From the IMG/VR virus record IMGVR_UViG_3300035698_009139: a stretch of 64,000 nt of DNA, one strand, 5' to 3'. Every line of letters starts with the position of its first letter. Within the stretch, counting starts at the first letter, position 1. Below, piece by piece: positions 26,816-61,213 of the stretch. A model generated the notes under the pieces. That model was not told where the DNA came from. It did no database searches and saw only the letters and a program-made list of their open reading frames with translations. The stretch is from a virus. Position numbers and translations under genes: made by a program.

Positions 26816-27148
26816 ATGGAAAAGAAGACGTTCAAAGAGAGGTATATGATGGCTGTTAAAATAACTACAGCAACACTCGCGCTGATCGGTATGCTGGTCA
26901 CTGGATGGCTCTCAATGGGTTTATCTACACCCGTAATGAGCCATGAATTGGCTCCCATCATACAAGTAGCGGGCAGTTATCTGGACGACAAGATTCACAA
27001 TTTACGCCGAGAGTCGTTAGACATTCGCGGCCGCCTAGCTGATGGCGTTAAGAATTCTCAGTACAAAAGATTGCTCAACGACCGCTTGCAGCAGATCAAC
27101 ACAGAGATCCTCAAGCTGCAAAGGCAGTCTAAACAAATCAAACGTTGA
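26816..27148 (+). CDS. Hypothetical membrane-anchored protein
   Basis: TATAAATA late promoter at 26804-26811; TM helix then coiled coil. Confidence 0.6.
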   Translation: MEKKTFKERYMMAVKITTATLALIGMLVTGWLSMGLSTPVMSHELAPIIQVAGSYLDDKIHNLRRESLDIRGRLADGVKNSQYKRLLNDRLQQINTEILKLQRQSKQIKR

Positions 27149-27230
27149 CGGTGTAGCCCGTGGCCGGGTATACTAGTTAAGAGAGGGTAGCCCCCTCGTG
27201 GTTCGATCCCAACTACACCGACCTAATAAT

Positions 27231-27306
27231 GGCCCCATAGTTTAATGGTTAGAATAATGGTTTTTCATGCCGCAGATCACGGGTTCGATTCCCTGTGGGG
27301 CCGCCA
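27231..27306 (+). tRNA. tRNA-Glu(TTC)
   Basis: GGCCCCA/TGGGGCC-GCCA, TT-TTC-AT loop. Confidence 0.8.
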
Positions 27307-27464
27307 ATACAGGAGCGCACAATGGACATAAAAGTCCGGCCGATGACGGCCGAAGAGATGCGCTACATGGAAAAGCTGACACATCGGATACACGAAAGTG
27401 CCGAAGAAGAAGCTAAGAAACGCACCCGCAAATGGGGTGGAGCCAAGAAGAGCGAAACTAGCAG

Positions 27465-27493
27465 TTGACTAGATCCTGTTAGTCGTGTATATT
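27465..27493 (+). promoter_or_regulatory. Sigma70-type promoter for the large ncRNA
   Basis: TTGACT-17nt-TATATT. Confidence 0.75.
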
Positions 27494-27499
27494 ATCTAA

Positions 27500-28520
27500 A
27501 TCGACAGACACAAAACCGACTTTCCTTTGTCATGGACTTCGTAGTGAATGTACTGGATCCGTAACCAGATGTCTGTTAGAATCGGCAGTTTGCAGTCAGT
27601 CTGCCTCCTCTCACTAGCTTCGGCTTGAGGAAATCAAACACTGACCTGAGAGTAGTAATAGTAGAGTAATGGCGGTATGACGTCATTAGGATAACTGCAG
27701 CAATGCAGCCAAAGTTAGGACTTCACAGCCTAGCGCCAGAAATGGCCCTTTCATACAAGCTCAGATCTCCTGGCGACAGGTTATCACCGAAGGGTGGTAA
27801 TAAGATCAGACAGTCAGCTGTGTGTCCGAAAGGATACTCCCCAGGCCATCCGGTGAGGGGGAAGCGGCCCGCAAGCTGCACCGCAGATGCAAACTGACCG
27901 AAGATTGATGATTAATGAGTAGCCATAACAAGAGCACGAGCGATTTCAAGTAAGTGCAAGTGGCAGGACAATCGGTGATGGAATACCCCTTCTTAGGAAT
28001 GTGGTGTTACTGATTCGAGAAGGACAGCGGAGTACCTGGGAGGGGAAAGGCAAGACGGTGTGTTGTATTTTGTCGGTAACAACCGGCGAAGCAACTGAGA
28101 CAGCACATCGCAGTGATTTCTAAGAAGCTCGTGGAGAGCATCTGCCTTTAGCAGAAGTGGTGGTTCGATCCTACCTCTTTATTTAAAACGCAAAGCCTGT
28201 CTCAGTACGTTGTTAAAGTCGTCTAATCCTAGAATCCTCGGATAATCTAGGTTGCGGATCCTCGCAAGGGAAAAGCAATTGATGGCCAGAAGGTCGGAAA
28301 CTTCTAGCGGAGTTGTACTGCTCGCAAGGCAGACGGTTCGAAGGCTGTTGAGTAGCAACGTGCGATAAGTGAAATGCCACACTTTAAAAAAGGCGACGTT
28401 GTTCGCAGACTGCCCAGATCCTCGCGGAGGGGTAGTGGATAACCGGTTAACCTAGATTGCCAATTTAGGGTACGACTGAAGGTGCGGACGTGAAACGTGT
28501 AATCTCAGCGTTCTATCGAT
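27500..28520 (+). ncRNA. ~1-kb highly structured ncRNA, GOLLD-like
   Basis: No credible ORF; own promoter and downstream hairpin; long-range helices 27517-23/28215-21, 27586-94/27888-96, 28094-103/28197-206; GNRA-capped stems; lies among tRNAs. GOLLD identity not verified. Confidence 0.65.
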
Positions 28521-28536
28521 TCCCCAGTATGGGTGT

Positions 28537-28581
28537 AACTAAGCTAGCCGACGCGGATATAGTCGTCGGTTGGTTTAGTCA
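28537..28581 (+). terminator. Long hairpin downstream of the large ncRNA
   Basis: ACTAAGCTAGCCGACG...CGTCGGTTGGTTTAGT. Confidence 0.55.
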
Positions 28582-28596
28582 CATTTAGGAGGCACA

Positions 28597-28845
28597 ATGA
28601 AATTTATACGAAAGCCAGTGCCTGTGGAAGCAGTCCAATGGACTGGCGATAACCACAAACAAATGTCATCATTTGTCGGCGACCGACTCGAATACATGTC
28701 CTTCTTACAAGGACGGATTATGGAGCTGACAACGTCAAGGGGAATGATTAAGGTGCAGGTGAATGAATGGCTGGTCGTAGGACCATCCGGAGAGTTCTAC
28801 GCACGAACGGACGAAGCGTTCTGGAAAGCACACGAAGAAATTTAA
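28597..28845 (+). CDS. Conserved phage hypothetical protein (paralogue of 62531-62791)
   Basis: RKPVPVEAVQW..GEFY...F motif; AGGAGG RBS. Confidence 0.7.
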   Translation: MKFIRKPVPVEAVQWTGDNHKQMSSFVGDRLEYMSFLQGRIMELTTSRGMIKVQVNEWLVVGPSGEFYARTDEAFWKAHEEI

Positions 28846-28846
28846 T

Positions 28847-28921
28847 GGGCGTGAAGCACAACGGTTGTGCAGGGGATTGTCTATTCCAAGGTTGCGGGTT
28901 CGAATCCCGTCTCGCTCGCCA
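28847..28921 (+). tRNA. tRNA-Asp(GTC)
   Basis: Cloverleaf, TT-GTC-TA loop, GCCA. Confidence 0.8.
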
Positions 28922-60138: not shown

Positions 60139-60551
60139 TGACAATTGCAGATGAACTCCGGAAAACAACAGACGCCAAGAAGGATGCCGACCTGAAGATC
60201 GTACGTGAAAAGAGATCTGCCAGGCTAAAGCAAGCAAAAGCGGATGCGGTTAAGGCGATGAACCGCATCCGCCGCATGGCTCCGAAGTTGATGGAAGAGG
60301 CCGCAGCCGCTGGTAAGACCGAGGTTGTTGTTTTCAGCAGTTATAAACAGCCCAGTGGTGCGTACCTAGACCCAGGTAACCAACTGAATTATCCGCTGGA
60401 ACAGTTCGCTAAAAAGCGGGGGTTAAATGTCCGCGTCCGATCAACTGAGGCCTGTGAAATGGGCCCTGAGAGTTATTCATACTCACTGTCCTGGGACGCC
60501 CCTCGACGAGAAGACCCAAGATCATATGAGAATTATGTTGTCCGCGGATGA
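60135..60551 (+). CDS. Hypothetical protein
   Basis: GAGG RBS. Confidence 0.55.
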   Translation: MMTIADELRKTTDAKKDADLKIVREKRSARLKQAKADAVKAMNRIRRMAPKLMEEAAAAGKTEVVVFSSYKQPSGAYLDPGNQLNYPLEQFAKKRGLNVRVRSTEACEMGPESYSYSLSWDAPRREDPRSYENYVVRG

Positions 60552-60572
60552 ATAATGGTGTATTATAAGTAT

Positions 60573-61013
60573 ACTTACGATGTTGATGTGAAACTCAACG
60601 CTAGACAGGACCTGGGGGCAGTACCCAGCGCCTCCACCATAAGCAACTGTGGTTCGTTGATCCCAGCCAAATGGGATGAAACCATAGAGAGATAAGATAC
60701 CCTGAAGCGGGGCAGGAGAGCATGATGAAGCTTTCGAGGGCCGTGGATTCGAGAAAGGTTCCTAGCGGAATCCAGTAACGTATCGAGAGTATCGAATTCC
60801 TGGAAAGGGGTATTCGCCTGGAACAGGATGCCGCAGTTGTTTATGATGGGGGCGAAATAGGATCGACTGTTAGCTAATAGGTAAACGGAGTCGTCCGGCG
60901 CAAGCTCGGTTAACGCAAGACAGAACTAAACGCAAACGATAATGCGGTACTTGCCATTGCAGCGTAAGCTGTAGTGCGGGGCTTGGGGAGCGCCTGGCAA
61001 CAGAAGCTCCCTA
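60573..61013 (+). ncRNA. ssrA: Two-piece (permuted) tmRNA, tag ANDNAVLAIAA
   Basis: Acceptor piece ends GGCAGTAC-loop..CGCCTCC-ACCA (60639); coding piece starts GGGGGCG (60848) giving G3:U70; tag frame 60932-60967. Confidence 0.92.
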
Positions 61014-61213
61014 CTTTCATTATGAGGTCAAATGTCAAACCCAAAATATTACAGCATGTCTAATGGCGTTAACAAACCGCTAGTAGATTTTACGGCACCC
61101 AGTGACGCCGTTGCTTTTGGTCGGGCAGTTGGTGTAGGTGCTGAGTACTGTGTCCGCCTTGATGCCAAACAATGTATGATGTACACAGTTTTAGAATATG
61201 GATGGCAAACAAA

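What the first reader, a model, noticed from the sequence alone, without database searches (positions are those of the whole stretch)
27465..28581. ~1-kb ornate ncRNA (GOLLD-like) with its own promoter and an embedded tRNA-like module
Seen: about 1,020 nt without a credible ORF in an otherwise dense genome, a clean promoter, a downstream hairpin, several long-range helices, two competing pairings for 28094-28109, and an internal TCTGC-CTTTA-GCAGA plus GGTGG-TTCGATC-CTACC element (28141-28175). Known: GOLLD RNAs are large, lie beside phage tRNAs, can embed tRNAs and have no established function. Family assignment is inference.
Basis: partly seen in the sequence, partly recalled or inferred. Interest (0 to 1): 0.72.

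Follow-up and report, generated by a model that had tools for sequence, protein, structure and literature searches.

The report
GOLLD cage RNA in phage tRNA island
The gene-free kilobase is a genuine copy of GOLLD, a known giant phage RNA that in two solved examples builds hollow RNA-only cages; this copy sits among a large phage's tRNA genes and carries a shrunken, non-decoding tRNA-shaped insert, so it is a well-supported but ordinary new member of a known family.

Summary
Window 28055-28511 (+) matches Rfam GOLLD (RF02032) over the whole model at 163.4 bits (gathering score 150). Named phage GOLLDs, phiCbK included, score 159-202 bits.

The 390 nt upstream (27667-28054) is the GOLLD 5' domain:
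- A profile built only from 45 IMG/VR relatives hits the window there and nowhere else (E 1.4e-38).
- Its 91-pair consensus fold covaries strongly: 94.5% of cells paired against 34-38% in slid controls.

A 9-bp helix that closes the central linker and a 9-bp pseudoknot also covary, and both are intact in the window.

The "tRNA-like module" (28122-28179) is homologous to the tRNA-shaped element found in the linker of about 80% of relatives. Here its D loop and anticodon loop have shrunk to 5 nt each, and it fails every tRNA detector.

A sigma-70-type promoter (27465-27493) fits a family habit: 61% of relatives have one, against 9% of control windows. It lies about 170 nt upstream of the conserved core, across an unconserved leader with no excess structure. 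The downstream hairpin is real but lacks a U tract.

Expression could not be tested. GOLLD, its place in tRNA islands, its embedded (pseudo-)tRNAs and its 12-/14-mer cages are all published, and this scan has noted GOLLD on other DNA before. Verdict: new member of a known kind, moderate-to-low interest.

The parts
27465..27493 (+). Sigma-70-type promoter TTGACT-17-TATATT (10 of 12). The -35 hexamer overlaps the stop codon of the upstream 48-aa ORF (27322-27468).
   Evidence: only such site in 27200-28900; 28 of 46 relatives have a promoter scoring at least 10/12 within 230 nt upstream of their GOLLD, against 9.4% of control windows. Use of this promoter in vivo is not shown.
27500..27666 (+). 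Presumed 5' leader between the promoter and the conserved core. It is not conserved and shows no excess structure.
   Evidence: MFE -37.5 kcal/mol, z +0.89; no homology to relatives upstream of about 27653-27670; leader lengths of 7-208 nt occur in relatives.
27667..28054 (+). GOLLD 5' domain (the cap domain in the solved cages). It includes the near-invariant hairpin GTCCGAAAGGATA at 27824-27836.
   Evidence: a profile built from relatives only hits 27662-28052, E 1.4e-38; 91 consensus pairs, 79 with compensatory change, 94.5% paired against 34-38% in slid controls; the window keeps 88/91 pairs with small re-registration, against 72.9 +/- 2.4 in shuffles.
28055..28511 (+). GOLLD 3' domain (Rfam RF02032, model 1-416), ending in the conserved GTGTAATCTCAGCG (28497-28510).
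   Evidence: 163.4 bits, gathering 150, E 5.3e-44; bona fide relatives score 159-202 bits.
28095..28205 (+). Central linker (called J13/15 in the literature) with its closing helix, 28095-28103 paired with 28197-28205.
   Evidence: 9 pairs, 45-47 of 47 sequences paired at eight positions and 33 of 47 at one, with several pair types at five positions. The window has 9/9.
28122..28179 (+). Shrunken tRNA-shaped module. Its parts are a 4-bp acceptor stub AAGA/TCTT, a D arm GCTC-GTGGA-GAGC, an anticodon-like arm TCTGC-CTTTA-GCAGA with a 5-nt loop, and a T arm GGTGG-TTCGATC-CTACC. There is no CCA.
   Evidence: aligns with the embedded tRNAs of L137, Mesorhizobium phage Cp1R7A-A1 and phiCbK, with deletions in the D and anticodon loops; not called by ARAGORN or by Rfam tRNA even at E<=10; the D, anticodon and T stems covary in relatives.
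28205..28363 (+). Long-range pseudoknot pairing of the 3' domain, 28205-28213 with 28355-28363.
   Evidence: annotated as a pseudoknot in the Rfam consensus; 45-47 of 47 sequences paired at every position, up to six pair types per position. The window has 9/9.
28538..28579 (+). Stable 3' hairpin just before the ribosome-binding site (28587-28592) of the next ORF (28597-28845). Possible weak terminator or 3'-end protector.
   Evidence: -30.9 kcal/mol, z -3.64, 0 of 200 shuffles as stable. No U tract, so not called by the terminator scan. Role inferred.

Best explanation
This is a gene for a GOLLD RNA, Rfam RF02032, the giant ornate non-coding RNA of phages.

Shown here: a two-domain RNA core of about 845 nt (27667-28511). 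Its 5' domain, 3' domain, linker-closing helix and pseudoknot all match a covarying family consensus. It lies in the middle of the tRNA island of a large uncultivated phage.

Inferred for transcription:
- It is transcribed rightwards by host RNA polymerase from its own sigma-70-type promoter at 27465-27493.
- Transcription passes through a 167-nt unstructured leader.
- The 3' end lies at or near the 28538-28579 hairpin.

Inferred from the solved GOLLD structures (env-38 14-mer, Streptococcus agalactiae 12-mer): copies of the RNA self-assemble without protein into a closed dihedral nanocage. The 5' domains form the caps and the 3' domains form the rings. The central linker points into the lumen.

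In this copy the linker is a tRNA-derived module. It keeps the D, anticodon and T stems and a canonical T loop, but it has lost the features needed for decoding and charging (5-nt anticodon loop, 4-bp acceptor stub, no CCA). It can therefore act only as a tRNA-shaped structural element or bait, not as a tRNA.

The biological role of the cage is not known for any GOLLD. The most likely area is tRNA or translation handling during lytic infection. The grounds are the constant association with tRNA arrays, the tRNA-shaped linker, accumulation during lysis as reported, and the reported ribosome pull-down.
For: -: GOLLD hit at 163.4 bits, above the gathering score of 150, full length; no other family at E<=10.
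- IMG/VR relatives and phiCbK score 159-202 bits, so the window's score is typical.
- about 60 full-length same-subtype relatives in IMG/VR, the closest about 58% identical.
- a 5'-domain profile built without the window hits only 27662-28052, E 1.4e-38.
- the 5'-domain fold has 79 of 91 pairs with compensatory change, 0 of 500 shuffles reach the observed values, and slid controls pair at 34-38% against 94.5%.
- the window fits 88 of 91 pairs.
- the linker helix and the pseudoknot are each 9/9 in the window and covary.
- the linker module is a tRNA homologue with covarying stems. It is detectable as a tRNA in 50 of 63 relatives but not in the window.
- promoter enrichment of 61% against 9.4%.
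- tRNA-island context in the window and in relatives.
- Literature: PMC12286853 (14-mer cage, linker inside, tRNAs sometimes in the linker, lysis-time expression, ribosome pull-down). PMC12990946 (12-mer, tRNA in J13/15, 'inhibited storage' idea). PMC6582537 (pseudo-tRNA inside a mycobacterial GOLLD).
Against: - No expression data for this locus.
- The promoter alone is not above chance.
- The 3' hairpin has no U tract, so the RNA could be part of a longer processed transcript.
- Cage formation and stoichiometry are extrapolated from two solved homologues whose sequences I did not align to the window.
- The window differs from most relatives in two 5'-domain hairpins: one is shorter at about 27768-27785 and one is longer at about 27980-28010. 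Differences of this kind change stoichiometry between solved GOLLDs (PMC12990946).
- A Lactobacillus prophage GOLLD was reported to be dispensable for phage production (cited in PMC7567579).
Confidence: 0.9

Rival explanations
1. The GOLLD is not an independent transcription unit. It is co-transcribed with the flanking tRNA genes and small ORFs from upstream promoters (for example 27145-27174 or the island's entry promoters) and released by processing. In that case the 27465-27493 site is a chance match.
For:: one promoter-like site where 1.8 are expected by chance; another 10/12 site at 27145-27174, and 26 such sites on the + strand of the window; 18 of 46 relatives have no strong promoter within 230 nt; no canonical terminator after the RNA.
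Against:: strong promoters are about six times enriched upstream of related GOLLDs (61% against 9.4%); several relatives carry textbook promoter-plus-terminator units (L010, L167). The window's site lies exactly at the end of the upstream ORF.
Confidence: 0.25
2. A decaying, non-functional GOLLD remnant. The shrunken tRNA module and a score only 13 bits above the gathering score would be signs of erosion.
For:: the linker module fails all tRNA detectors; 163.4 bits against 150; only about 58% identity to the nearest relative.
Against:: the helices are kept through compensatory differences (9/9, 9/9 and 88/91); phiCbK (165 bits) and L138 (159 bits) score the same; 13 of 63 relatives also lack a detectable tRNA; all conserved loops and the 3' end motif are present.
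Confidence: 0.05
3. A different large RNA (ROOL, group I or II intron, a new class), or a cluster of small protein genes.
For: None beyond the absence of annotation. Short ORFs of 64-67 aa exist.
Against:: only GOLLD matches among 4,227 Rfam families; the ORFs have no family match. RNA-type covariation runs across the whole stretch.
Confidence: 0.01

Closest known systems
GOLLD RNA, Rfam RF02032 (Weinberg et al. 2009; structures PDB 9MEE env-38 14-mer and 9L0R S. agalactiae 12-mer, as listed in PMC12286853 and PMC12990946)
   Same: Full-length match to the 3'-domain covariance model. Two-domain layout. Pseudoknot. Variable central linker. Phage origin. Location inside a tRNA array.
   Different: About 58% identity to the nearest sequence found. 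A 167-nt leader. One shortened and one enlarged hairpin in the 5' domain. Multimerisation not tested.
GOLLD RNAs of Mesorhizobium phage Cp1R7A-A1 (MT188704.1, about 37.8-38.7 kb), Caulobacter phage phiCbK (NC_019405.1, 102288-102774 plus upstream) and Erythrobacter phage vB_EliS-L02 (OL955261.1)
   Same: The profile of the window's subtype matches them: Cp1R7A-A1 over both domains (E 2e-90), vB_EliS-L02 over most of both, and phiCbK over the end of the 5' domain plus the 3' domain. They lie in tRNA islands (Cp1R7A-A1, phiCbK). phiCbK, like the window's phage, also encodes a permuted alpha-type tmRNA.
   Different: Their linkers hold elements annotated as, or scoring as, tRNAs: tRNA-Leu in Cp1R7A-A1, tRNA-Gly in phiCbK, and an Rfam tRNA hit in vB_EliS-L02. 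The window's linker does not reach any tRNA threshold. No DNA-level similarity by blastn.
Mycobacterial GOLLD with an embedded pseudo-tRNA (M. aubagnense, PMC6582537) and Mycolicibacterium GOLLD with tRNA-Phe in J13/15 (cited in PMC12990946)
   Same: GOLLD inside a large horizontally acquired tRNA cluster, with a tRNA-derived element inside the RNA. The pseudo-tRNA was not seen as a separate RNA.
   Different: Actinobacterial host. The window's module is more reduced, with 5-nt D and anticodon loops.
ROOL RNA
   Same: Large phage- or plasmid-borne RNA near tRNAs that forms RNA-only cages with an internal disordered linker (PMC12286853).
   Different: Unrelated sequence and fold. No Rfam ROOL match here.

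Membership tests
GOLLD RNA (Rfam RF02032) | Covariance-model score at or above the curated gathering score, over the full model | tested here: met
   163.4 bits against 150, model 1-416 of 416, E 5.3e-44; known members score 159-202 bits.
GOLLD RNA (Rfam RF02032) | Conserved long-range pseudoknot of the 3' domain | tested here: met
   28205-28213/28355-28363 is 9/9 paired, and 45-47 of 47 relatives are paired at every position with many pair types.
GOLLD RNA (Rfam RF02032) | A structured 5' domain of about 400 nt preceding the 3' domain, giving a total above 800 nt | tested here: met
   homologous, covarying 5' domain at 27667-28054. The core is 845 nt.
GOLLD RNA (Rfam RF02032) | Variable central linker (J13/15), sometimes holding a tRNA | tested here: met
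   the linker is closed by a covarying 9-bp helix. It holds a tRNA homologue in 50 of 63 relatives and a degenerate one in the window.
GOLLD RNA (Rfam RF02032) | Phage or prophage location, typically beside tRNA genes | tested here: met
   25 ARAGORN tRNAs at 25.4-40.8 kb around it, and phage proteins (ribonucleotide reductase, DNA ligase, nicotinamide phosphoribosyltransferase PHROGs).
GOLLD RNA (Rfam RF02032) | Expressed as a discrete RNA that accumulates in lytic growth | not testable with these tools
No isolate or transcriptome is available.
GOLLD RNA (Rfam RF02032) | Protein-free assembly into a closed dihedral multimer (12- or 14-mer) | not testable with these tools
   Known only from cryo-EM of two homologues (PMC12286853, PMC12990946). 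No RNA multimer predictor was available here.
tRNA (for the embedded module 28122-28179) | Cloverleaf with 7-bp acceptor stem, 7-nt anticodon loop, and a score above the tRNA model thresholds | tested here: not met
   no Rfam tRNA hit at E<=10; no ARAGORN call. The sequence shows a 4-bp acceptor stub, a 5-nt anticodon loop, a 5-nt D loop and no CCA.
ROOL RNA / group I and II introns | Match to the family covariance model | tested here: not met
   no such match at the gathering score or at E<=10.

The most novel reading that the evidence does not exclude
The tRNA-shaped element in the GOLLD linker would be the cage's functional payload rather than a stowaway tRNA gene. Across relatives its D, anticodon and T stems covary, while the anticodon varies freely (Lys, Arg, Leu, Ser, Ile, stop-codon readers, 6- and 8-nt loops). 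It lacks CCA and has only a 4-5-bp acceptor stem. The window's copy is a natural minimal version that keeps the stems and the T loop but cannot decode. On this reading each cage displays a dozen or more tRNA mimics in its lumen, acting as bait, decoy or sponge for a tRNA-binding factor. Examples would be a host anticodon nuclease or a tRNA-processing or tRNA-modifying enzyme. The minimal copy would then define which tRNA features that partner needs.
Probability: 0.12. Interest if true: 0.75.

Novelty: new member of a known kind. Interest (0 to 1): 0.3.

Why it matters
It assigns a gene-free kilobase in an uncultivated, tRNA-rich large phage to a known RNA family. The phage has no DNA-level match in the phage collection searched. 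The assignment removes a candidate "new RNA class".

The side results have modest value for work on GOLLD:
- A set of about 60 full-length relatives with a covariation-supported 5'-domain fold, which the Rfam model does not cover.
- Evidence that an own promoter is typical of the family.
- A survey showing that the linker element is a tRNA-shaped module without CCA and with freely varying anticodons. The window holds one of the most reduced versions. That gives a natural deletion series for asking what the linker does inside the cage.

Tried and rejected
- blastn (distant) of the RNA, and megablast of 24 kb of the window, against 50,697 phage records: no match. The tmRNA also has no match. The phage has no sequenced close relative in that collection.
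- Neighbour-protein searches in IMG/VR. The 82-aa downstream protein found nothing. The DNA ligase found six loci, none with a GOLLD within 10 kb, so synteny could not be used.
- The first pattern scan with a 14-mer worked but was redundant with the two-motif scan.
- Own-genome search: no genome is held.
- Host identification by a phage-specific protein gave only distant Vibrio, Pseudoalteromonas and Sinorhizobium phage hits at 27-35% identity. The alphaproteobacterial host is suggested only by the alpha-type permuted tmRNA.
- Single-sequence MFE folding of the 5' domain reproduces only 32 of 86 consensus pairs exactly. It is not a useful test for an RNA of this size.
- I tried to map the named inter-subunit bridges of the env-38 structure (L20-J13/15, L21a, L21b, L11a) onto the window. 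The paper's supplements held as text give no residue tables, so this stayed an inference.
- A covariance model of the 5' domain was not built. The alignment has 503 columns, above the 400-column limit, and the calibration time would be too long.
- Rejected ideas: that the leader 27500-27666 is part of the ornate fold (z +0.89, not conserved), and that the leader or the linker is a functional tRNA.

Full report
**Observation**

The stretch 27465-28581 lies in the tRNA island of a large phage. ARAGORN finds 25 tRNAs between 25.4 and 40.8 kb and a permuted alpha-type tmRNA at 60.5 kb. PHROG matches to ribonucleotide reductase, DNA ligase and nicotinamide phosphoribosyltransferase support a phage origin.

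Inside the stretch the longest ORFs are 64 aa (+) and 67 aa (-), and neither has a significant family match.

**Identity**

A scan of the whole window against Rfam 15 at gathering thresholds gives GOLLD (RF02032) at 28055-28511 on the + strand. The score is 163.4 bits against a gathering score of 150, E 5.3e-44, covering model positions 1-416 of 416. A permissive scan of 27300-28700 at E<=10 adds nothing credible: no ROOL, no intron and no tRNA.

The score is typical for real members. Seven relatives, including Caulobacter phage phiCbK and Mesorhizobium phage Cp1R7A-A1, score 159-202 bits.

**The 5' half**

The Rfam model covers only the conserved 3' domain, so I collected relatives to test the rest.
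- Motif scans of IMG/VR and profile searches gave 62 full-length GOLLDs of the same subtype, 46 of them non-redundant at 93% identity. The nearest is about 58% identical to the window.
- In the alignment, conservation begins at about 27667 (GTAATGGCGG) and ends at 28511.
- A profile built from 45 relatives without the window hits the 64-kb window once, at 27662-28052, E 1.4e-38.
- RNAalifold on 46 sequences predicts 91 pairs in the 5' domain, 79 with compensatory changes.
- On that structure 94.5% of cells pair, against 34-38% when partners are slid by 1-3 columns. The covariation score is 0.673 against 0.08-0.11, and no shuffle out of 500 reaches the observed values.
- The window keeps 68 of 91 pairs in the MAFFT register. 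It keeps 88 of 91 if each helix strand may shift by up to 3 nt, against 72.9 +/- 2.4 (maximum 80) for shuffled sequence under the same freedom.
- The most conserved 5' element is the hairpin GTCCGAAAGGATA (27824-27836). It may correspond to the conserved GAAA loop L11a of the solved structure (PMC12286853), but that equivalence is my inference.

**Long-range helices**

- The strand 28095-28103 (CTGAGACAG) pairs with 28197-28205 (CTGTCTCAG) and closes the central linker. Eight of the nine positions pair in 45-47 of 47 sequences and one in 33 of 47, with GC/AU/UA/CG exchanges.
- The Rfam-annotated pseudoknot, 28205-28213 with 28355-28363, pairs in 45-47 of 47 sequences at every position, with up to six pair types per position. 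The window has 9/9.
- The basal stem 28056-28061/28105-28110 also covaries.
- Kretsch et al. report that the covariation-predicted pairing between L20 and J13/15 is an inter-subunit bridge in the cage. Whether that is the pseudoknot tested here I could not verify.

**The embedded module**

Between the strands of the closing helix lies 28122-28179:
- AAGA/TCTT stub
- GCTC-GTGGA-GAGC
- TCTGC-CTTTA-GCAGA
- GGTGG-TTCGATC-CTACC

It aligns with the linker elements of relatives and of the phiCbK and Cp1R7A-A1 GOLLDs, where those elements are annotated as tRNA-Gly and tRNA-Leu.

ARAGORN calls a tRNA in the linker of 50 of 63 same-subtype GOLLDs. Rfam tRNA scores there are 40-55 bits. The D, anticodon and T stems covary.

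These elements have only 4-5-bp acceptor stems and none ends in CCA. Their anticodons are scattered: Lys, Arg, Leu, Ser, Ile, Glu, CTA, TCA, and 6- or 8-nt loops.

The window's copy has lost about 3 nt from the D loop and 2 nt from the anticodon loop, and it fails every detector. tRNAs and pseudo-tRNAs inside GOLLD are published (PMC12286853, PMC12990946, PMC6582537), so this is a reduced version of a known feature.

**Transcription signals**

TTGACT-17-TATATT (27465-27493) is the only sigma-70-like site in 27200-28900. One site is not more than chance gives.

Its weight comes from comparison. 28 of 46 relatives carry a site scoring at least 10/12 within 230 nt upstream of their GOLLD, against 9.4% of 1,499 control windows from the same loci and strand.

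The window's -10 element lies about 170 nt before the core. Relatives range from 7 to 208 nt. The intervening 27500-27666 is not conserved and folds no better than shuffles (z +0.89).

Downstream, 28538-28579 forms a long hairpin (z -3.64) without a U tract, 8 nt before the ribosome-binding site of the next ORF. Some relatives have canonical terminators at this place. The hairpin's role is inferred.

**Mechanism**

- Shown: family membership and an intact, selected fold.
- Inferred: the RNA self-assembles into a dihedral RNA-only cage. The solved homologues are 14-mers or 12-mers, depending on peripheral helices. The 5' domains cap the cage and the linker faces the lumen (PMC12286853, PMC12990946).
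- The function of any GOLLD is unknown. The tRNA-array context and the tRNA-shaped linker point to tRNA or translation handling during infection.
- Expression could not be examined.

**Novelty**

GOLLD is a described family. Published alignments already include phages of Alphaproteobacteria that also carry tRNA islands and a tmRNA. Earlier notes of this scan mention GOLLD on other DNA.

This is a new, divergent member. The only unusual trait is the strongly reduced linker module.

Noticed in passing
Relatives' GOLLD linkers, e.g. L037:6468-6583, L137:11072-11184, L267:3113-3231, L213:11937-12055: Embedded tRNA-shaped modules carry very diverse 'anticodons', including CTA (amber reader), TCA (opal reader) and 8-nt or 6-nt anticodon loops. 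None has CCA and the acceptor stems are only 4-5 bp. That pattern fits selection on shape rather than on decoding.
   Followed up: partly
window 60534-61058: Two-piece (permuted) alpha-type tmRNA with tag ANDNAVLAIAA. phiCbK and IMG/VR locus L137 have such a tmRNA within 0.5-2 kb of their GOLLD, whereas here it is 32 kb away. It hints at an alphaproteobacterial host.
   Followed up: partly
window 28847-28918: Rfam calls a tRNA (47.5 bits) that ARAGORN does not report. It starts directly after the stop codon of the 82-aa ORF 28597-28845.
   Followed up: no
window 1-64000: 26 sigma-70-like sites scoring at least 10/12 lie on the + strand against 7 on the - strand, matching the almost uniformly rightward gene orientation. 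One at 27145-27174 sits just upstream of tRNA-Glu 27231-27306.
   Followed up: no
window 27322-27468: A 48-aa lysine/glutamate-rich ORF with no family match lies between tRNA-Glu and the GOLLD promoter. Its stop codon lies inside the -35 hexamer.
   Followed up: no
L271-L281 (genome contigs): The 5'-domain motif GTCCGAAAGGATA...CGGTGAG occurs in MAGs labelled Gammaproteobacteria, Puniceicoccaceae, Nannocystaceae, Muriicola, Treponema, Ruminococcus, Oligoflexia and others. Only L271 was confirmed as a full GOLLD.
   Followed up: partly
window 27768-27785 and 27980-28010: Compared with most relatives, the window's 5' domain has one hairpin reduced to CCTG-GCGA-CAGG and another enlarged by about 25 nt. 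Peripheral helix differences of this kind are reported to change cage stoichiometry (PMC12990946).
   Followed up: no
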